The notes under the pieces: model-generated
Databases searched by the model: none
Seen by the model: the letters and a program-made list of their open reading frames with translations, nothing else
Told to the model about the DNA's origin: nothing
Shown here: positions 7,207 through 14,442 of the stretch, piece after piece
Layout: each line of letters opens with the position of its first letter
How positions within the stretch are numbered: the stretch's first letter is position 1
Made by a program: the position numbers and the translations under genes
Source: a virus
Strand: one strand, 5' to 3'
Length of the DNA stretch: 15,323 nucleotides
UHGV virus genome: UHGV-1764124

Positions 7207-7504
7207 GTTTAGACCTCGATACTTTAAAAATTTGAACGACGTTACCGCGCGTTTTAATAACCGCAGCCAGCATGACAGCGTTGATAATGACCTCAGATAA
7301 ATCCACAGCCATTGGCGTACGTAACCAGATTGCATAGGCGACTCGAACAGGAATACTGGCCGCAGCAACAATCAGGAAATAAGCAAGCCATCCTCCCCAC
7401 CTTCGATGTTGAGAGCCGTTACGCCGGAATGTGACAACGCGAATTGCTATGCCAGTGCAAATAACTGCATTGGTGATAAGCAAAAAAAACTCATGCGTTA
7501 CCAT
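7196..7504 (-). CDS. Small membrane protein of the lysis cassette (holin or antiholin candidate)
   Basis: 102 aa with 2-3 hydrophobic helices; strong SD GGGGAGAA 7 nt upstream; overlaps both neighbours. Confidence 0.55.
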
Positions 7505-7895
7505 CGTCTTTTCTCCCCGGAATTAACTCGCGTGGATTATCGGAACGGTGATAGAGCCATATACCAATACGCACAGCGACAATTGCTGACACGAATGCGC
7601 CTGCAGAGAAAACAATCCCTTTTTCAAAAGAGTCCTGCGTGATGGTAGGGATCAGGCTGGCTATGCCGATAAGAATTGATGCTGCTGGTTTGTAAAAGAG
7701 AAGGCCGCAAAGAAAGCTGAGCATCGACAGGAGCACCCGGCGACGGATGGGGTACTCTACTGCAGAGGTAACAAAAATTACCGCCCCAGCCAAAGCCCCT
7801 AAAGCAACCTCCGGAGGGGCACCTGCAATAACCGCAGCAAGAGAACTAAAACTAAGCAACTGATTTAATTGCTCACTTGTTACTTGAGCAGACAT
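7491..7895 (-). CDS. Holin-like membrane protein, first gene of the lysis cassette
   Basis: 134 aa with 3-4 hydrophobic helices and a charged C-terminal tail; SD AGGAGA 5 nt upstream of the ATG. Confidence 0.55.
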   Translation of the reverse strand: MSAQVTSEQLNQLLSFSSLAAVIAGAPPEVALGALAGAVIFVTSAVEYPIRRRVLLSMLSFLCGLLFYKPAASILIGIASLIPTITQDSFEKGIVFSAGAFVSAIVAVRIGIWLYHRSDNPRELIPGRKDDGNA

Positions 7896-8176
7896 ACTTT
7901 CTCCTGTTTACTATCTATAAGCCAGTCAATTATTGATGACTAAACCCGCATAGTAAACCATATATGAATCATTATTGTTCCATATCATATATCTCAATAA
8001 AAGTACTAATGATTTTACAGAACGAGCCAGCAGAGTGGGGGCAGTTGTACAGGAACCATAGACTTAATTTTGTATTTAATAATGCTATGGTGTAATAAAC
8101 CTGAACATGTATTTAAAATACGTACTGATTCATGATAGAATTCAAAGATAACTTTTCACAAACTCCGTTTTTGATA

Positions 8177-8205
8177 CCCGCAAAATATTGCGGGCTTTTT
8201 TTTAA
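8177..8205 (+). terminator. Plus-strand-oriented rho-independent terminator overlapping the tailspike stop codon (orphan)
   Basis: Stem CCCGCAA / TTGCGGG with loop AAT(A), followed by eight T on the plus strand. On the minus strand the stem is followed by A-rich sequence, so it is a poor minus-strand terminator. Confidence 0.6.
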
Positions 8206-11200
8206 CGTTCTTCCAGAGACTGAATCCGCTCTTTTATCTTATCCATTTCTCTGCGCTGCCATGCTGCCTCGATATAGAATAAGAGATCAGGTCTGACCCC
8301 CCATCTAGATCCTGCTGGCGTTATTTCAACGCGCTCAATGATGTCTTCCATTACCATCACTGGATTATCATCCTCATCAACAATGATGCTCCCGTCATTA
8401 TCAGTCAGCGGCATTTCCCTTTGGCCAGTAATGACGTCATCATATACTGCGGGATAATCGTCATAGCAAAGAAAGGCATAGCGGCATGTTGTGCTTTCTT
8501 CTTCCATGAGTCCGTGAGAAATAAGAACATCACGAAGTTGCTGCGCGATTACACCATGATGTATCCTCGCCCCTTCTTCCCCCTTTATAGCGACAGCGTT
8601 CAGCCATTTATAAGCGATATACCTGACGTCACCCCAGGCATCCAGCAATGCTTCGTCAGGAGAGACCGGCTCTGTCTTTAATGTTCCGTCACTGGTAACC
8701 ACAGGATTGGAGCCAAGATAAACTGTCGAGAACCTGTTTCCCGGACCACCAAGAGCATTTACATTATCAAGATAAGGTTTAACATCTCCGTTCTCAAAAA
8801 GATGTTCGAGTGCGTTATATACCGCGCGACGTGGAGTACTGCTTCCGGAACCATGCAACGTTATCATTGCACCATCTGCTGAAGACGTTATTTCACCGCC
8901 GCTAACGATTAATCTCTGAGCGGTAACATCATCAGACGGTACTTTCTTCGCAATAATGGCGTAATTACCCTCAAGTTTGACTTCCGCGCGAACTTGTCCT
9001 GATGTACCTGCATGGACAGTCAGTGACTGGACGGCAACATCATCTGTGAAATCAACGGGTACAGGAACCGTCCTCACGCCTGACGTCGACATAAAAGTAG
9101 GAAGCGTTCTGTTAGGAGTGGCTCCGTAGACAAAATCCCTTGAAACAAATTCTTCCTGTTTAATTTTCACCCTGAAACAATACAAATCAGCCGGGTGACC
9201 ATCGTGAACATAAGGATATTTTCTGTTGTTATCCCCTATGCTCCATGGGTTTAGAAAGTCTTCCCCACCGAAAATGTAGTACAGCCAGTTGTCTTTGATA
9301 CAAACTGAACCAACACCAACTGCAGAGTTAACTATTCCGCCCTGATAAATCTGATCAGTAACATTAACCCACTCTACATTATCCAGACTCCACTCATTGA
9401 CGTTAACTCTGGTCATAAATGTTCTTGGATAATTTCCTGCATAACGGTTATCAGGTTCTCCTCCTTCCCACTCACCAAATGCGCGCTCACTGCCAAAAAT
9501 AATCAGCTCATCGCCAACTTTGGCAAAAGGAAGGTTTGAGTGATGAACATTATTTGGGAAGCGAAGAGAATTCCATGATGTACCTAAATCAGAGCTTCTG
9601 TGCAATGAACTACCGGGTTGAGTACTTAATGTCCCCCTGGTCGTCAGATACAGAATGCCATCATAATATTTTACACATGGCTCAGATGCATTCGCCTCAT
9701 ATTCTGCAGGTATGCGTCTGCGAACAAAGCTACCAGGAGAACCGAAAGCATCAGAGAAATAGAGTATCCCAAGCTCGCGTGGACCAATATCACCATTATG
9801 GTAGCCAACAGCAAAACTGTTATCGCTAATCGTCGCAAAACTGTGAATCTCAGTAACAGGAGTGCTTCCGTCAACAAAAGAAGGAATAGTTCCAAGACTG
9901 GTTTTTCTCCATGGTGACGAGTGAAATGATGTACCAAAACTCCAGTATCTACCCTCGTTATTCTGATCCACATCCTGGGTATTTTGCGTCGTAACTGTAA
10001 AAGTATTTTTATCAATAACAGTAGTCACCGTCATATTCCCGGTAACACCTGTAACACCAGAGTTTGAGAAGTTGACAAAATCACCAGCAAATAATCCGTG
10101 ATCAGTAATGCGAATATAAGCGACTTGCTGATTTGCTGCTTTCGTTATACCACCATAAGCGCGAAGGCTGCGACTCATTGGGCGATCCCACAACTCTGCA
10201 ACCTGCAGTTTATTTCCGCTCACGGTCCGCGTCTCAATTACAGCAAAAAGGCGATTTCTGACAACCCCCATACTCATGCAGTGATAGTTAACTGTGGGAT
10301 AGTTTTCATGTAAATCTGTAAGCCATTCCGGCGTTGTCCAGGTCTTCCCGTCATCTCCTGAGCGAACCCATGCAACATGGAGGTTATTTACACCATGGCG
10401 GTCTCCAGCCATAAAAGGCGCATAGATGACATTGTCATATACAAACGTTTTATCCTGCGTCCAGGCGTTGTACCACGGTGTATCTGTAATTTTAAATAAC
10501 TCTCCCTGGATAAAATCTTCAGAAGCATAAAAAAGAGGCTGGCCCGGTATTCTCTCAAATAAAAAACGAGCATTTTTAAATCGACTGACATCCGGAAGAG
10601 TTGATACTTTAAAAGTAAGCCCTAATCCGTCAATTTTATAACCTGGAGATGAGGCTTCAAGGCACGCGCTTATTGCAGTGGAATCGTCATTTATACCATC
10701 ACCAACAGCTCCAAAATCTTTGGGGCTAATAGCATCACGCATTTTATCCTGGAACGTTCGGTACACAGCCCCAGAACCATACTGAATAAACCAACCAAAA
10801 CCACCAACAACCCCGGCGATTGCAGCATCGACATAATTACGCATTGAGCGATTATTTACAGCGTCCTGCTCAAATGATGGATCTGCAAGGTTAGAAATTT
10901 TGTTTTGCTTTGCATCGTAATATTTTGCAAGCAAAGATGGTTTCATCAATGCACGTCTGAACCACCCAAAACATTGCTGGATCAGCATCGTCAGGTAGTC
11001 AAAGGCATCTTCATGCACTTCGGGGAAAAATTTTCCCTGATTGCGAAGGTCTGTCTCCTGCACTACATCAAGCACACGATCTATCGTAATTCGCCATCCA
11101 GTAGCAAGCGGAGACGGAAGAACCACAGAACCGCCACTATAAGTGCCCGCCCCAGTTACCGTATAACCGGTATCCAGAACCAATTCTGTTACGTTTCCGT

Positions 11201-11321
11201 TCAGGTCAGACACCTGAACAACCAGGTCTGATTTTCTGAAAATTCGAAAAGTATACGGAAACGATGTCGTAACGCCGTTACCGGTGTATTCGTTGTGGTC
11301 AACTTCGGTTGAGACCGTCAT
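8202..11321 (-). CDS. Tailspike / tail fibre with T7 gp17-like N-terminal domain, Asp-box (sialidase-like) core and C-terminal S74 chaperone domain; endosialidase-like
   Basis: 1039 aa; SD GGAGA. N-terminus resembles T7 tail fibre gp17 (KISNLADPSFEQDAVNNRSMRNY vs T7 RRIVNLANAVDDRDAVPFGQLKTM, from memory). Two Asp-boxes, SGDDGKTW (321-328) and SSDLGTSW (576-583). DFGAVGDG motif. C-terminal 160 aa with S877/K882 dyad spacing and GARIHHGVIAQQLRD. The CDS is high confidence; endosialidase specificity is about 0.5. Confidence 0.85.
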   Translation of the reverse strand: MTVSTEVDHNEYTGNGVTTSFPYTFRIFRKSDLVVQVSDLNGNVTELVLDTGYTVTGAGTYSGGSVVLPSPLATGWRITIDRVLDVVQETDLRNQGKFFPEVHEDAFDYLTMLIQQCFGWFRRALMKPSLLAKYYDAKQNKISNLADPSFEQDAVNNRSMRNYVDAAIAGVVGGFGWFIQYGSGAVYRTFQDKMRDAISPKDFGAVGDGINDDSTAISACLEASSPGYKIDGLGLTFKVSTLPDVSRFKNARFLFERIPGQPLFYASEDFIQGELFKITDTPWYNAWTQDKTFVYDNVIYAPFMAGDRHGVNNLHVAWVRSGDDGKTWTTPEWLTDLHENYPTVNYHCMSMGVVRNRLFAVIETRTVSGNKLQVAELWDRPMSRSLRAYGGITKAANQQVAYIRITDHGLFAGDFVNFSNSGVTGVTGNMTVTTVIDKNTFTVTTQNTQDVDQNNEGRYWSFGTSFHSSPWRKTSLGTIPSFVDGSTPVTEIHSFATISDNSFAVGYHNGDIGPRELGILYFSDAFGSPGSFVRRRIPAEYEANASEPCVKYYDGILYLTTRGTLSTQPGSSLHRSSDLGTSWNSLRFPNNVHHSNLPFAKVGDELIIFGSERAFGEWEGGEPDNRYAGNYPRTFMTRVNVNEWSLDNVEWVNVTDQIYQGGIVNSAVGVGSVCIKDNWLYYIFGGEDFLNPWSIGDNNRKYPYVHDGHPADLYCFRVKIKQEEFVSRDFVYGATPNRTLPTFMSTSGVRTVPVPVDFTDDVAVQSLTVHAGTSGQVRAEVKLEGNYAIIAKKVPSDDVTAQRLIVSGGEITSSADGAMITLHGSGSSTPRRAVYNALEHLFENGDVKPYLDNVNALGGPGNRFSTVYLGSNPVVTSDGTLKTEPVSPDEALLDAWGDVRYIAYKWLNAVAIKGEEGARIHHGVIAQQLRDVLISHGLMEEESTTCRYAFLCYDDYPAVYDDVITGQREMPLTDNDGSIIVDEDDNPVMVMEDIIERVEITPAGSRWGVRPDLLFYIEAAWQRREMDKIKERIQSLEER

Positions 11322-11424
11322 GTTAAATCTCCAGATAGTCGCAGCACCCGTTGCGCCGCATATCTGGTTATTCTATTACCTGGAAAACCACATATGGATA
11401 GAAAGGATGTAAATACGAATAGAT

Positions 11425-11441
11425 ATTACCTTTCAGGTAAT
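11425..11441. promoter_or_regulatory. Third copy of operator-like palindrome ATTACC-tttca-GGTAAT
   Basis: Same 6-bp arms and 5-bp spacer as 505-521, with shared flanks (ATAGAT...GGTAATTT); sits in the divergent region between the tailspike start and the LexA-box gene, just before TTGCAA (11442-11447). Confidence 0.3.
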
Positions 11442-11516: not shown

Positions 11517-11774
11517 ATGCAGCAGTATCACTATCCACTGGAAGACGGATTTACCGAAAGGATTCACACGCCGGGAGGCGTCAGGTCACTGGTGGAGGGA
11601 TCGCACTTGATGAAATTACTCCGGGATCTCGATAAGGATGGATTTAATGTCGATGGCCCACTTGCCGAACTGACTGCACTGATTAACTACGTCACCAGCT
11701 CACAGATGTCTATGCAGGATCTGCAAACACATCTCGACTATTGTGCCGAACAATTACGAAAACAAACCCGGTAA
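11517..11774 (+). CDS. Small LexA-box-associated protein (85 aa), function unknown; candidate SOS-induced antirepressor or moron
   Basis: ATG 11517 with SD GGAGAA (11505-11510) is preferred over the track start at 11499; opposite orientation to all flanking late genes; no transmembrane segment; no motif I recognise. Confidence 0.6.
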   Translation: MQQYHYPLEDGFTERIHTPGGVRSLVEGSHLMKLLRDLDKDGFNVDGPLAELTALINYVTSSQMSMQDLQTHLDYCAEQLRKQTR

Positions 11775-11780
11775 ATTTAA

Positions 11781-11798
11781 AGGCCGCGAAAGCGGCCT
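11781..11798. terminator. GC-rich hairpin between convergent genes (probably a minus-strand terminator, possibly bidirectional)
   Basis: Stem AGGCCGC / GCGGCCT with loop GAAA; on the minus strand it is followed by TTTAAATTTA, whereas on the plus strand no U-tract follows. Confidence 0.5.
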
Positions 11799-11817
11799 GT
11801 GACATGTCACGCTCACG

Positions 11818-11958
11818 TTATGACAAGCCTATGTACCCTGCTACACCAGATAATATCATAATAACTGCAACAGCAAATTCGCCATCGTCAATGATACATT
11901 TACGGTTCATAACGCCAAGTGCAACAAGCGCAAACACAACAAGAATAAAAGCAATCAT
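11818..11958 (-). CDS. Candidate micro-ORF encoding a 46-aa two-helix membrane peptide
   Basis: ATG with SD AAGGA 6 nt upstream, 10 nt after the stop of the 824-aa gene; product MIAFILVVFALVALGVMNRKCIIDDGEFAVAVIMILSGVAGYIGLS. Not in the ORF track (below cutoff). Confidence 0.35.
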   Translation of the reverse strand: MIAFILVVFALVALGVMNRKCIIDDGEFAVAVIMILSGVAGYIGLS

Positions 11959-11967
11959 TTCTCATCC

Positions 11968-14442
11968 TTATTGCGGAGTGACATCCTGTGGTCGCCACCA
12001 GTATGTCTGGTTAAACTCTTTCTTCGAACGTTGCTCCATTTTACGCAAATAACCTGGTGAAAAATACTCCTGCATCTGGTTAAAGATCATGTGATCGAGA
12101 GCCGCCTTCAAGTACCAGAGATTCGCACCTGGCATCAGACCTTTCCCCAGCTTAACCAGATCACCACCAGTCTGCTCACTCTTCCCTTCCACAGCATTTA
12201 ACGGTATGCCCTGAGCAATCTTCACTACGTCATCAACCAGACCAGCTACCGGGCCAAGCATCGACGCCAGCGCGCCGCTTCCGTACCTAGTGTGATCTGA
12301 CAATAAAAAGTCACCGTAAAGGCCAAGACCACCACCTTTCAGTAGAGCACCAAGCCAAAATTTAGCAGCATCTTCTCCTGTCATCTCGCGAGGATTACGA
12401 CCAGACGCAAGGTCGTTAAGTTGCTGCGACAAAGCGCCAAGAATGGTCGTACTGGCAATAAACGTCGCAATATATGCCGCACGCCCACCAGCAGACGGCA
12501 TACCCATAGCGCGTGACCAGTGACGCATAACCACCGAGATAGGGAACGATTTAAACAGGAAAACACTTCTCGTTAATTCACCTTTCCATGTTCCACGCTG
12601 AATACCAGAACCGGTTATCAGTTGCTCACGTGCTCCCGGTGTAATAACAGCCATATCAACTTCTTCAGTTACGGCACCGAGCAGTTTACGCATTGCCTCA
12701 AATTTCACGCGTTCAGGCTCACCAAGATGTTTAACTGCTGAATCAGGGATACGCATAATGCTTTCCGGTGTCAGCATCGTATTATTACCGTTCCCCCAGT
12801 CCTCCTGTTTCGCCAGCTTCCATACGCTCCAGTCTGTGTCAGTAATCCCTTTGCTTTTCAGGATACGAAAATCAGAGTCATCGAGGCTACGAAGGTCTGG
12901 TGTACGTGACACTACTTCTCCCAGGCTTCCCATCATGGTTACGCCATAGGCGCGCTTGTGCGCATCTGACCATGCTGTAAGCCCACTGGCACGCATTACC
13001 GCCGTTGCCGCCCAACGAGACACTGACGGCCCCATATTATCCATCGCCCAGCGGTTAACGCTGCCAAGTAGAGATTCCATCGCCAGACCAGCGCGGCGCG
13101 CCCGCGCAAGTTCTGTACGGTTCGTTGGGTCCATAGCTTCAAGCTGGTTGCGGAATAACTGGTTCATTGGAAGGTTGGTAACCTTCGCAGACAGATACAT
13201 GGTTCCAAGATCAGAGAACGATGACAGCAACGCGGATCCGAGTCTGCTGGCAACCAGCCAGTTGCGGATATTGTCAGACCATCGCGCGATGTGCGGATTC
13301 GCTACAGGCTGTGTCTTTCCGGAAATAAAGTTGTACAGATTCTCTGTGTTGTTCGCCAGCCGCTCGACTTTACCGGTTTTACTCGGGTTAGCTGTTGCCG
13401 TTTCTGCCTTCACCTGATCAAGAAGAGAGCGGAAAACATGATCGGGGTTTGGGCCATATGTTTCCACCAGTGCAATATCTTTACTGATACCTTCCAGGTG
13501 ACCGACCATGATTTCCCATAGAGAGCGATCGCCATAAAGTTGCTGATATTGCAGATAGGAATCTGCATCTTTGAAATGTATCTGTCGTGATGCATTACCA
13601 CGGTTAGCACGTGCGCCGGAAATTCGCATTCCGGTATCAGTAAGCTTATTCAGCCCACCAGTAGCGATCGTGTTATAAGCCTCTCCAAGAAATGAAGACA
13701 ACTCGGCATCGTTCATCAGTTGTCCATCGGCTCGGATATAATATTTGCGATCCAGCTTACCTATAACATCGCTAACCCACTTATCCTTTGATACTGCCCC
13801 AACCTTTTCCATAGAATGATGTTGAGGGATCCCCCAGTTTTCGAGATAGCCAATGTCCCCACCAGCATCATTAAACCGGCGGCGCAGCAGCTCTGTAACT
13901 TCTCTCCACGCCTTAGCACCGTTTCTTGCTTTAGCATTGCCAGTATTTTGCCCCCGCATTTCATATACCAGGTCACGTACGCCCGCTTCATCTTCAAACA
14001 GACCAAAAAAGCGAGGATCAACTGCTTCGAATGCCTCCTGCAATTGACTCAATGCATAATCACGGGTGGCTTTTGTTCTGGATTCAACAGAGAGGAAATT
14101 AGATTTACCGTCTGCATTAAAAGCTATAGTACGGTTAAGAGCGCCAAGTTTCCCATCAGCCCCTTGATAGCTATTGATAAATTTATCCAATCTCTGACGC
14201 GCGGCTATAGTGAGAGCCACACGACGTTTCTTTAATGCCGCTTCTCGCTGTAATTCTTCAGATGCCAATTGTGCTGCTCGATATAGCCGCTCTGATTCGG
14301 AAAGTTGTCTCCACGACATCGGGTCATCACGAGCAATGGAGCGCATATTTCGATAAATGCGGTCTTCAATGTTCTGTATTTCTCGCGCCGTTAACGTGCG
14401 CTGCGCCGCCTGCTGGACCGCTTGTATACATTCCTGTCTCAT
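11968..14442 (-). CDS. Large virion protein (824 aa), candidate internal core / ejection protein
   Basis: Long ORF with SD GAGAGG; helical Q/R/E-rich N-terminal part and Gly-rich C-terminal segment (KGGGLGLYGDFLL); positioned just upstream of the tailspike in the late operon. Family is unassigned. Confidence 0.75.
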   Translation of the reverse strand: MRQECIQAVQQAAQRTLTAREIQNIEDRIYRNMRSIARDDPMSWRQLSESERLYRAAQLASEELQREAALKKRRVALTIAARQRLDKFINSYQGADGKLGALNRTIAFNADGKSNFLSVESRTKATRDYALSQLQEAFEAVDPRFFGLFEDEAGVRDLVYEMRGQNTGNAKARNGAKAWREVTELLRRRFNDAGGDIGYLENWGIPQHHSMEKVGAVSKDKWVSDVIGKLDRKYYIRADGQLMNDAELSSFLGEAYNTIATGGLNKLTDTGMRISGARANRGNASRQIHFKDADSYLQYQQLYGDRSLWEIMVGHLEGISKDIALVETYGPNPDHVFRSLLDQVKAETATANPSKTGKVERLANNTENLYNFISGKTQPVANPHIARWSDNIRNWLVASRLGSALLSSFSDLGTMYLSAKVTNLPMNQLFRNQLEAMDPTNRTELARARRAGLAMESLLGSVNRWAMDNMGPSVSRWAATAVMRASGLTAWSDAHKRAYGVTMMGSLGEVVSRTPDLRSLDDSDFRILKSKGITDTDWSVWKLAKQEDWGNGNNTMLTPESIMRIPDSAVKHLGEPERVKFEAMRKLLGAVTEEVDMAVITPGAREQLITGSGIQRGTWKGELTRSVFLFKSFPISVVMRHWSRAMGMPSAGGRAAYIATFIASTTILGALSQQLNDLASGRNPREMTGEDAAKFWLGALLKGGGLGLYGDFLLSDHTRYGSGALASMLGPVAGLVDDVVKIAQGIPLNAVEGKSEQTGGDLVKLGKGLMPGANLWYLKAALDHMIFNQMQEYFSPGYLRKMEQRSKKEFNQTYWWRPQDVTPQ

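What the first reader, a model, noticed from the sequence alone, without database searches (positions are those of the whole stretch)
7896..8205. AT-rich 300-bp gap with an orphan plus-strand terminator antisense to the tailspike end: candidate sRNA or late regulatory region
A strong hairpin plus eight T (8177-8205) is oriented for plus-strand transcripts, but every annotated gene for 3 kb on either side is on the minus strand. No plus-strand ORF of credible size ends there. A weak promoter-like pair (TTGTAT 8070-8075, TGTAAT 8091-8096) would give a transcript of about 100 nt. The same gap must also hold the promoter or antitermination signals for the holin-endolysin-spanin operon, and the hairpin may simply insulate the tailspike from divergent transcription.
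Basis: inference. Interest (0 to 1): 0.45.

Follow-up and report, generated by a model that had tools for sequence, protein, structure and literature searches.

The report
Orphan one-way terminator in phage accessory slot
The gap between the tailspike and lysis genes of this K1-capsule-specific temperate phage holds a real terminator that points the "wrong" way, in the slot where related phages carry cell-surface-modifying genes; a small RNA may be made there but nothing shows it, so the finding is real but fairly ordinary.

Summary
A 7-bp GC-rich hairpin (8177-8194) followed by C+T8 (8196-8203) lies on the + strand and abuts the tailspike stop codon. Shuffles give 0.004 such motifs per window. 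No credible + ORF ends there.

The window is an epsilon15/phiV10-like (Uetakevirus) temperate phage, 99.8% identical to vB_EcoP_ZX5, with an endosialidase tailspike. The 306-bp gap has three parts:
- **7896-7967:** the genus-wide structured leader of the lysis-cassette mRNA on the minus strand, supported by covariation in 37 distinct sequences.
- **About 7969-8176:** a lineage-specific, AT-rich, ORF-less spacer.
- **8177-8203:** the one-way terminator.

In relatives this slot holds serotype-conversion genes, often convergent with the tailspike, or nothing. Their post-tailspike hairpins point the other way.

My best reading is that the terminator is the 3' end of a convergent, now ORF-less accessory unit. 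It blocks antisense transcription into the tailspike and lets late transcription run on to the lysis genes.

A roughly 55-nt sRNA remains possible. However, the best + promoter (8113-8141) scores no better than chance, there is no Rfam match, and the about 100 known copies are at least 98% identical, so no covariation test is possible. RNA data would decide.

The parts
7901..7905 (-). Shine-Dalgarno sequence (AGGAG) of the first lysis-cassette gene (p27-like, Phage_holin_8; ATG at 7895-7893)
   Evidence: Read from the sequence. Gene identity.
7906..7958 (-). Structured leader of the lysis-cassette mRNA. The outer helix arms are 7950-7958 and 7906-7914 (9 bp here, 13 bp in relatives). They enclose an inner hairpin.
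   Evidence: Alignment A2 has 37 distinct sequences. 90.8% of cells are paired, against 35-53% when partners are slid. The covariation score is 0.339 against at most 0.108, and 0 of 500 shuffles reach it. One pair splits GC:17 / AU:15. The window's own fold gives the same two-tier shape. The within-lineage SNPs T7951C and T7954C become G-U pairs in the minus-sense RNA only. The epsilon15 record labels the homologous stretch 'RNaseIII mRNA processing'.
7958..7967 (-). Conserved palindrome, TCATATATGG here against the consensus CCAYATRTGG followed by GTTT. It is probably part of a late-type promoter or regulatory module.
   Evidence: It is present 60-75 nt upstream of the p27 ATG in all slot-bearing relatives. 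The same motif lies about 65 nt upstream of the tailspike ATG (window 11388-11397) and in 7 of 9 relatives at the threshold used, with degenerate forms in the other two.
7968..7997 (-). Candidate sigma-70-like promoter TTGAGA-18-AATGAT. It would start the lysis mRNA at the palindrome.
   Evidence: 7.5 bits, not above chance. This is an inference only.
7969..8176 (.). Lineage-specific, AT-rich, ORF-less spacer. It is found only next to the endosialidase tailspike.
   Evidence: The only homologues in phages or E. coli genomes are the same prophage family. It has no similarity to the conversion-gene promoter regions of relatives. It has no ORFs. GC is about 0.32.
8113..8141 (+). Best plus-strand promoter candidate, TTAAAA-17-TGaTAGAAT (extended -10). 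The predicted start is about 8148.
   Evidence: 9.6 bits; shuffled-sequence best score has median 8.3 and 95th percentile 11.4. It is invariant in all copies, but overall variation is too low for that to mean anything.
8148..8203 (+). Hypothetical non-coding transcript of about 55 nt. It would have an unstructured 5' part, a U-rich stretch (UUUUUGAUA) just before the terminator hairpin, and a U8 tail.
   Evidence: Fold at -12.7 kcal/mol, z = -3.5, driven by the terminator. No expression data exist.
8177..8203 (+). Unidirectional intrinsic terminator: 7-bp stem, 4-nt loop, then C + T8
   Evidence: The stem is intact in every copy examined, about 40 of them. The loop occurs in both orientations (AATA and TATT). 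A8176G adds an eighth G-C pair in some copies. The T tract is T7 to T9.
8202..8230 (-). The last 9 codons plus stop of the endosialidase tailspike. DNA similarity to CUS-3 siaK1 stops at 8231, marking a recombination junction.

Best explanation
The interval is the variable accessory ('conversion-gene') slot between the tailspike gene and the lysis cassette of a Uetakevirus-type temperate phage that carries a K1 endosialidase tailspike. It has three parts.

1. The 70 nt next to the lysis cassette encode, on the minus strand, the genus-wide structured leader and palindrome of the lysis mRNA.
2. About 200 nt are lineage-specific, AT-rich and ORF-less.
3. At the tailspike end sits a genuine one-way intrinsic terminator oriented against the tailspike.

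The terminator is most likely the 3' end of a convergent, moron-like accessory transcription unit that arrived with the endosialidase module and now carries no gene. It stops any plus-strand transcript that arises in or crosses the AT-rich spacer before it can run antisense into the tailspike gene. It lacks a U tract in the other direction, so late minus-strand transcription passes through it from the tailspike into the lysis cassette.

Shown: the terminator motif and its polarity, the absence of an ORF, the slot's variability, and the leader structure. Inferred: that plus-strand transcripts exist, that late transcription reads through, and how the element originated.
For: **Terminator.** It is far beyond chance and directional.

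**Slot contents in relatives.**
- Convergent conversion genes: epsilon15 gp21/22, phiV10 oac, and acyltransferases in Tyrion, PAT1 and SPN1S.
- Co-directional genes: TL-2011b, PAS61 and phiv142-3.
- ORF-less gaps of 175-430 nt.
- No slot at all: 72 nt in several IMG/VR loci and 7 nt in BUCT711.

Tailspike and lysis genes are therefore adjacent in the basal layout, and the slot is an insertion site.

**Read-through.**
- The gap is AT-rich (GC 0.32) against flanks of 0.45-0.56.
- In epsilon15, Tyrion, L076, L088 and L056 the hairpin after the tailspike carries its T run in the tailspike sense. Here it does not, and no other minus-strand terminator lies in the gap.
- The dyad ATTACC-N5-GGTAAT sits about 30 nt upstream of the palindrome before the tailspike in 9 of 9 relatives, and before the lysis cassette in epsilon15, phiV10, Tyrion, PAT1, SPN1S and L094. 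It is absent from this gap even at 3 mismatches.
- That absence fits lysis genes fed by read-through from the tailspike promoter.

**Variants.** Every variant seen in about 40 copies keeps or strengthens the hairpin: loop inversion, A8176G adding a G-C pair, and T7-T9.
Against: - No plus-strand promoter stands out from chance, so the transcripts to be stopped are hypothetical.
- The spacer shows no homology to any conversion cassette or its promoter, so the 'emptied cassette' history is conjecture.
- Conservation cannot separate function from youth. Variable sites are about 2.7% in the gap and about 2.5% in the flanking genes.
- There are no expression data of any kind.
Confidence: 0.5

Rival explanations
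1. The spacer plus terminator is a small-RNA gene. A constitutive or lysogen-expressed promoter (best candidate 8113-8141) would drive a non-coding RNA of about 55-100 nt that ends at the U8 tail. The RNA could act in trans through Hfq, or in cis as an antisense to the tailspike-lysis intercistronic RNA.
For: - The terminator is orphan and there is no ORF.
- An extended -10, TGaTAGAAT, lies 36 nt upstream of the hairpin and is the top-scoring + site of the region.
- A long uninterrupted U8 tail and a U-rich stretch directly 5' of the hairpin resemble what I recall of Hfq-binding modules. That comparison rests on my own knowledge and was not tested here.
- The predicted RNA has an unstructured 5' half.
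- The hairpin is intact in all copies.
- The slot is where relatives keep lysogen-expressed accessory genes.
Against: - The promoter score is within the chance range.
- There is no Rfam match above noise; the best E-value is 0.67.
- No diverged homologues exist, so there is neither covariation nor conservation evidence.
- No target stands out among the window's own translation-initiation regions.
- PGAP and GenBank annotate nothing here in 72 genomes.
Confidence: 0.3
2. The hairpin works on the minus-strand late transcript. It would be a 3'-end stabiliser or a weak terminator of the tailspike mRNA, and the A8/T8 run would be incidental.
For: - The hairpin starts 7 nt after the tailspike stop codon and is more stable in the minus sense (-14.0 kcal/mol, 8 pairs including G-U).
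- Relatives have a hairpin at the same place serving the tailspike sense.
Against: - No U tract follows in the minus sense (UAUCAAAAAC, score 2.65 against 4.07).
- A perfect T8 next to a GC stem has a chance expectation of about 0.004 per window, so it is very unlikely to be incidental.
- The upstream half of the lysis promoter module is missing here, which argues that read-through is needed rather than prevented.
Confidence: 0.12
3. The gap is a lambda-like late control region: a promoter, a short leader RNA and a terminator overridden by an antiterminator, placed ahead of the lysis genes.
For: The position immediately upstream of a holin-endolysin-spanin cassette mimics lambda PR'-tR'. A conserved leader exists there.
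Against: - The terminator is on the opposite strand to the lysis genes and points away from them.
- No minus-strand terminator lies in the gap.
- Relatives with a slot of only 7-72 nt lack any such unit.
Confidence: 0.03

Closest known systems
Morons of temperate phages (promoter-gene-terminator units inserted between conserved genes; e.g. phiV10 oac, epsilon15 gp21/gp22, and CFT073 neaT next to a tail-fibre gene, PMC3573123)
   Same: - It sits in the same insertion slot just downstream of the receptor-binding protein gene.
- It has lower GC than its neighbours.
- It has its own factor-independent terminator, oriented opposite to the flanking late genes as in 5 of 10 annotated relatives.
   Different: - It has no protein-coding gene at all.
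- Its promoter is unproven.
- It shows no sequence homology to any known cassette.
Short convergent antisense RNAs of temperate phages (lambda OOP, P22 sar)
   Same: It would be a short transcript with its own promoter and an intrinsic terminator, running against a neighbouring phage mRNA.
   Different: - OOP and sar overlap the coding or initiation region of their targets (from my knowledge of those systems).
- Here the overlap with the tailspike ORF is at most 2 nt, the stop codon, and the RNA would end 240 nt or more from the p27 ribosome-binding site.
- Expression is not shown.
Bidirectional intrinsic terminators between convergent genes
   Same: It is a GC hairpin flanked by an A run on one side and a T run on the other, sitting at the end of a gene.
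   Different: - Only one direction has a U tract.
- The + upstream flank is T-rich (CCGTTTTTGATA), so the minus-sense tail is A-rich.
- There is no convergent partner gene.
Tailspike-proximal terminators of epsilon15 and Tyrion (annotated rho-independent terminator in NC_004775)
   Same: It occupies the same position, a few nucleotides after the tailspike stop codon.
   Different: Those carry their T run in the tailspike sense. This one has the opposite polarity.

Membership tests
Intrinsic (Rho-independent) terminator | GC-rich stem with a short loop | tested here: met
   The stem is 7 perfect pairs with 5 G-C, the loop is 4 nt, and dG is -11.2 kcal/mol.
Intrinsic (Rho-independent) terminator | U tract immediately 3' of the stem | tested here: met
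   On the + strand C + U8 follows the stem. On the minus strand UAUCAAAAAC follows, so the feature is met for + only.
Intrinsic (Rho-independent) terminator | Lies at the 3' end of a same-strand transcription unit | tested here: inconclusive
   No + ORF lies within 3 kb. A + promoter candidate exists but scores within chance.
Intrinsic (Rho-independent) terminator | Terminates transcription | not testable with these tools
   This needs Term-seq or an in vitro termination assay.
Hfq-type trans-acting sRNA gene | Own promoter | tested here: inconclusive
   TTAAAA-17-TGaTAGAAT at 8113-8141 scores 9.6 bits. The null best score has median 8.3 and 95th percentile 11.4.
Hfq-type trans-acting sRNA gene | Terminator hairpin with a long U tail, preceded by a U-rich single strand | tested here: met
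   UUUUUGAUA, then the hairpin, then C-U8. The criterion itself comes from my own knowledge.
Hfq-type trans-acting sRNA gene | Conservation or covariation beyond neutral expectation | not testable with these tools
   All copies are at least 98.3% identical and no diverged homologue exists.
Hfq-type trans-acting sRNA gene | Match to a described RNA family | tested here: not met
   Rfam gave no hit at gathering thresholds. The best sub-threshold hit has E = 0.67 at 21 bits against a gathering score of 99.
Hfq-type trans-acting sRNA gene | A discrete transcript is detected | not testable with these tools
   I found no RNA data in the literature held.
Moron (independent accessory unit in a phage genome) | Inserted between genes that are adjacent in relatives | tested here: met
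   Tailspike and p27 are 7 nt apart in BUCT711 and 72 nt apart in 9 IMG/VR loci.
Moron (independent accessory unit in a phage genome) | Base composition unlike the neighbouring genes | tested here: met
   GC is 0.31-0.34 against 0.45-0.56.
Moron (independent accessory unit in a phage genome) | Carries a protein-coding gene | tested here: not met
   No credible ORF on either strand.
Lambda-type late control unit (PR' - leader RNA - tR') | Promoter and terminator co-oriented with, and upstream of, the lysis genes | tested here: not met
   The terminator is on the opposite strand, and no minus-strand terminator lies in the gap.
Bidirectional terminator | U tract after the hairpin in both directions | tested here: not met
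   The minus-sense tail is UAUCAAAAAC, score 2.65.
Uetakevirus lysis-cassette leader (unnamed; 'RNaseIII mRNA processing' in the epsilon15 record) | Palindrome CCAYATRTGG+GTTT 60-75 nt upstream of the p27 ATG | tested here: met
   It lies at 7958-7967 with one mismatch.
Uetakevirus lysis-cassette leader (unnamed; 'RNaseIII mRNA processing' in the epsilon15 record) | Two-tier helix ending just before the Shine-Dalgarno sequence, kept by compensatory changes | tested here: met
   The window differs from the majority by a G-C to A-U double change at pair 32-73.
Uetakevirus lysis-cassette leader (unnamed; 'RNaseIII mRNA processing' in the epsilon15 record) | Dyad ATTACC-N5-GGTAAT about 30 nt upstream of the palindrome | tested here: not met
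   It is absent from 7896-8205 at up to 3 mismatches. It is present in epsilon15, phiV10, Tyrion, PAT1, SPN1S and L094.

The most novel reading that the evidence does not exclude
In K1-capsule-specific Uetakevirus prophages of extraintestinal pathogenic E. coli (72 of 5426 complete genomes, including APEC O1, IHE3034, CE10 and IAI39), the slot that normally carries a receptor-modifying enzyme instead carries a small regulatory RNA gene. The gene would comprise an extended -10 promoter at 8133-8141, a seed region of about 29 nt, and an Hfq-type terminator. The RNA would act on host transcripts (for example capsule or surface genes) or on phage transcripts, so it would be an RNA-based form of lysogenic conversion.
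Probability: 0.15. Interest if true: 0.6.

Novelty: new member of a known kind. Interest (0 to 1): 0.3.

Why it matters
If the terminator only insulates, it is a small and tidy example of how modular exchange of tailspike-plus-accessory modules leaves polar punctuation behind. It would also show how a phage can switch its lysis genes between their own promoter and read-through from the tailspike promoter.

If a small RNA is made, it would be a prophage-encoded regulator carried by many neonatal-meningitis, urinary and avian pathogenic K1 strains. It would sit in the very position where related phages keep surface-modifying genes.

The by-products may be more useful than the original finding for annotating this phage genus:
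- a covariation-supported leader structure ahead of the lysis cassette;
- a repeated dyad-plus-palindrome module at the heads of transcription units.

Tried and rejected
- **Rfam.** I ran gathering and permissive thresholds and got nothing beyond noise. tRNA/tmRNA search found none.
- **Homologues of the gap.** I searched phages, E. coli genomes, IMG/VR, GTDB genomes and metagenomes. Only the same prophage family came up. The 8 GTDB hits to the 23-mer terminator were in unrelated taxa and I took them to be chance convergence. Covariation analysis of the putative RNA is therefore impossible.
- **Origin as an emptied conversion cassette.** No similarity to the promoter regions of epsilon15, phiV10, Tyrion, PAT1 or SPN1S cassettes, nor to the CUS-3 neuO region.
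- **Source of the tailspike's last 9 codons.** No phage other than this lineage has them.
- **Coding remnants on the + strand.** None.
- **Trans targets.** Nothing beyond shuffled controls among the window's 15 testable translation-initiation regions. Host targets could not be screened.
- **Literature.** The ZX5 paper has no transcript data. The hairpin sequence appears in no held paper. The epsilon15 genome paper (PMC2698709) is not held.
- **Consensus fold of the leader.** RNAalifold's automatic consensus missed the long helix of the leader. The helix was tested explicitly instead.

Full report
**What the window is.** The region 7400-8700 is 99.8% identical to Escherichia phage vB_EcoP_ZX5, a temperate podophage of the genus Uetakevirus (the epsilon15/phiV10 group). 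The gap with its flanks is also found as a prophage in 72 of 5426 complete E. coli genomes, among them APEC O1, IHE3034, CE10 and IAI39.

Pfam confirms the neighbours, all on the minus strand:
- an endosialidase tailspike (8202-11321);
- a Phage_holin_8 protein (7491-7895, here called 'p27-like');
- a second holin;
- a GH19 endolysin;
- a DUF2514 spanin;
- an integrase.

The C-terminal part of the tailspike is 99% identical to siaK1 of the P22-like K1 phage CUS-3 down to position 8231. The last nine codons are homologous in protein but not in DNA, so 8231 is a recombination junction.

**The observation.** The hairpin CCCGCAA-AATA-TTGCGGG (8177-8194) is followed by C and eight T (8196-8203) on the + strand. 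With strict criteria the window holds three such motifs, against 0.004 expected per dinucleotide shuffle. The other two (470+, 5905-) each close a transcription unit. The T run overlaps the tailspike stop codon by two bases.

Read on the minus strand, the hairpin is preceded by A8 and followed by UAUCAAAAAC, so it is a one-way element. The gap has GC 0.31-0.34 against 0.45-0.56 around it. No + frame is open: the only ORF of 50 aa or more runs straight through the terminator. The nearest + genes are more than 3 kb away on either side. The description is therefore confirmed.

**What normally sits here.** I compared the interval between the tailspike and the p27-like gene in ten annotated relatives and in 80 IMG/VR loci found with the p27 protein. 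It is a variable slot with four kinds of content:
- Convergent serotype-conversion genes: epsilon15 gp21/gp22, phiV10 oac, and acyltransferases of 329-646 aa in Tyrion, PAT1, SPN1S and several IMG/VR loci.
- Co-directional genes: TL-2011b, PAS61 and phiv142-3.
- AT-rich ORF-less gaps of 175-430 nt.
- Nothing at all: 72 nt in nine loci, and 7 nt in Klebsiella phage BUCT711.

The 306-bp gap of this window is present all-or-none. It always accompanies the endosialidase tailspike, and it has no partial homologue anywhere I could search.

Where relatives have a recognisable hairpin after the tailspike (epsilon15, Tyrion, L076, L088, L056), its T run is in the tailspike sense. In epsilon15 it is annotated as a terminator. 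This lineage is the exception. It has the only strong terminator among the 80 IMG/VR slots scanned with strict criteria, and that terminator points the other way.

**The left third of the gap belongs to the lysis cassette.** All slot-bearing relatives share a block directly upstream of the p27 ATG. It begins with a palindrome (CCAYATRTGG followed by GTTT; window 7958-7967, one mismatch).

In the p27 sense this block folds into an outer helix that ends just before the Shine-Dalgarno sequence and an inner hairpin. I tested this on 37 distinct sequences:
- 90.8% of cells are paired, against 35-53% when partners are slid.
- The covariation score is 0.339 against at most 0.108.
- No shuffle out of 500 reaches it.
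- One pair is split GC:17 / AU:15.

The many G-U pairs fix the strand as minus. The window's own sequence folds the same way, with arms 7950-7958 and 7906-7914. Two within-lineage SNPs in the stem (T7951C, T7954C) become G-U pairs. The epsilon15 record labels this stretch as an RNase III processing site. Rfam has no family for it.

**A repeated promoter-like module.**
- The dyad ATTACC-N5-GGTAAT occurs five times in the window against 0.49 expected, and about 15 times in ZX5. Apart from two 2-mismatch matches inside coding sequence, these lie in intergenic regions at the heads of transcription units.
- The arrangement dyad, 27-30 nt, palindrome+GTTT precedes the tailspike in nine of nine relatives. 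In epsilon15 and Tyrion the palindrome is degenerate.
- The same arrangement precedes the lysis cassette in epsilon15, phiV10, Tyrion, PAT1, SPN1S and L094.
- In this window the tailspike copy is complete (11388-11441), but the gap keeps only the palindrome. No dyad is found even at three mismatches.

Together with the missing tailspike-sense terminator and the existence of slot-less relatives, this suggests that in the K1 lineage the lysis genes are fed by read-through from the tailspike promoter. That is an inference.

**Is there a plus-strand transcript?** With a position-weight model scored against the gap's own composition, the best + site is TTAAAA-17-TGaTAGAAT (8113-8141) at 9.6 bits. 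It has an extended -10 and would start an RNA at about 8148. The best score per strand in shuffled sequence has a median of 8.3 and a 95th percentile of 11.4, so this is not evidence.

The hypothetical 56-nt RNA would have an open 5' half, a U-rich stretch before the hairpin and a U8 tail. By my recollection that layout resembles Hfq-binding sRNAs, but it is not a test. No target stands out among the window's own start regions. Nothing is annotated in the gap in any of the records listed for the 72 RefSeq genomes, and I found no transcript data in the literature held.

**Variation.** About 40 copies were compared.
- Variable sites are as frequent in the gap (about 2.7%) as in the flanking genes (about 2.5%), so conservation says nothing.
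- The hairpin stem is intact in all copies.
- The loop occurs as AATA or as TATT, which is the exact reverse complement of the stem-loop. This is an in-place inversion of the hairpin.
- A8176G adds an eighth G-C pair in some copies.
- The T run is T7 to T9.

All of these keep or strengthen the terminator.

**Verdict.** The element is a real, one-way intrinsic terminator sitting in the accessory slot.
- **Best-supported account (0.5):** it is the 3' end of a convergent, moron-like unit that came with the endosialidase module and has no gene. It acts as a polar stop that protects the tailspike from antisense transcription while remaining transparent to late transcription.
- **sRNA or antisense-RNA gene (0.3):** a live alternative that only RNA data can decide.
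- **Minus-strand role for the hairpin (0.12):** disfavoured by the missing U tract.
- **Lambda-style late control unit (0.03):** excluded by orientation.

Noticed in passing
window 8177-8194; L030, L032, L033, L041, L047, L049, L119, L120, L122-L125, L127-L129: The terminator loop exists in two states among otherwise near-identical prophages: AATA (this window, ZX5, APEC O1) and TATT (IHE3034 and others). The second is the exact reverse complement of the whole stem-loop, so the hairpin has been inverted in place. It is seen only on the 8160C haplotype, which also has unflipped members.
   Followed up: partly
window 7906-7967 (minus strand); alignment A2: A covariation-supported two-tier RNA stem-loop plus palindrome lies upstream of the first lysis gene. 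It is conserved across Uetakevirus-like phages of Escherichia, Salmonella and Enterobacter. Rfam has no family for it, and the epsilon15 record labels it only as a predicted RNase III site.
   Followed up: yes
window 505-521, 567-583, 5822-5838, 11425-11441; L132 (ZX5), about 15 sites: The dyad ATTACC-N5-GGTAAT recurs at the head of almost every transcription unit: the immunity region, integrase, tailspike, replication genes and terminase. The epsilon15 record calls one copy a repressor site. So many copies suggest genome-wide silencing or a shared promoter element.
   Followed up: partly
window 11388-11397 and relatives: The tailspike gene has its own copy of the palindrome CCATATGTGG+TTT about 65 nt upstream of its ATG, 27 nt downstream of a perfect dyad. 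The tailspike and the lysis cassette therefore appear to carry paralogous control modules.
   Followed up: partly
L018 4970-5000, L021, L036, L038 and most rows of A2: In most relatives the leader contains a strong Shine-Dalgarno sequence (AAGGGGG or CAGGAGG) and an ATG 23 nt upstream of the p27 ATG and out of frame with it. Both are buried in the helices. The K1 lineage lacks this upstream ATG and has a canonical AGGAG before p27 instead.
   Followed up: no
L002 6590-6625, L018, L021, L036, L038 (slot, conversion-gene sense): Convergent conversion cassettes in relatives are preceded by a conserved box, AAATTACCCnnAnGGTGATAnnAT. In it the dyad overlaps an extended -10 (TGaTAAAAT-like). This is a likely regulated promoter for the conversion genes.
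   Followed up: no
window 11780-11968 vs L001 / L004 11880-14560: The window lacks the ash/anti-repressor (BRO-N) block that ZX5 and the APEC O1 prophage carry between the small + gene (11517-11774) and the 824-aa virion gene. The window is therefore a distinct variant of this phage.
   Followed up: no
window 5905-5924 (minus); L004 about 5993-6016: The strong terminator after the spanin gene falls about where the host gene yfgI ends in the APEC O1 lysogen. It may therefore be part of the attachment-site region shared with the host.
   Followed up: no
L030 (E. coli MS 196-1) and L031 (23CRST038): In two genomes IS3-family elements truncate the p27-like gene or the tailspike gene while the gap itself is intact. 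These prophages are decaying.
   Followed up: no
window 8231: There is a sharp recombination junction inside the intramolecular-chaperone tail of the endosialidase. To the right the sequence is 99% identical to CUS-3 siaK1; to the left is sequence known only from this lineage. CUS-3 carries the phase-variable neuO downstream of its tailspike, and this lineage has no counterpart.
   Followed up: partly
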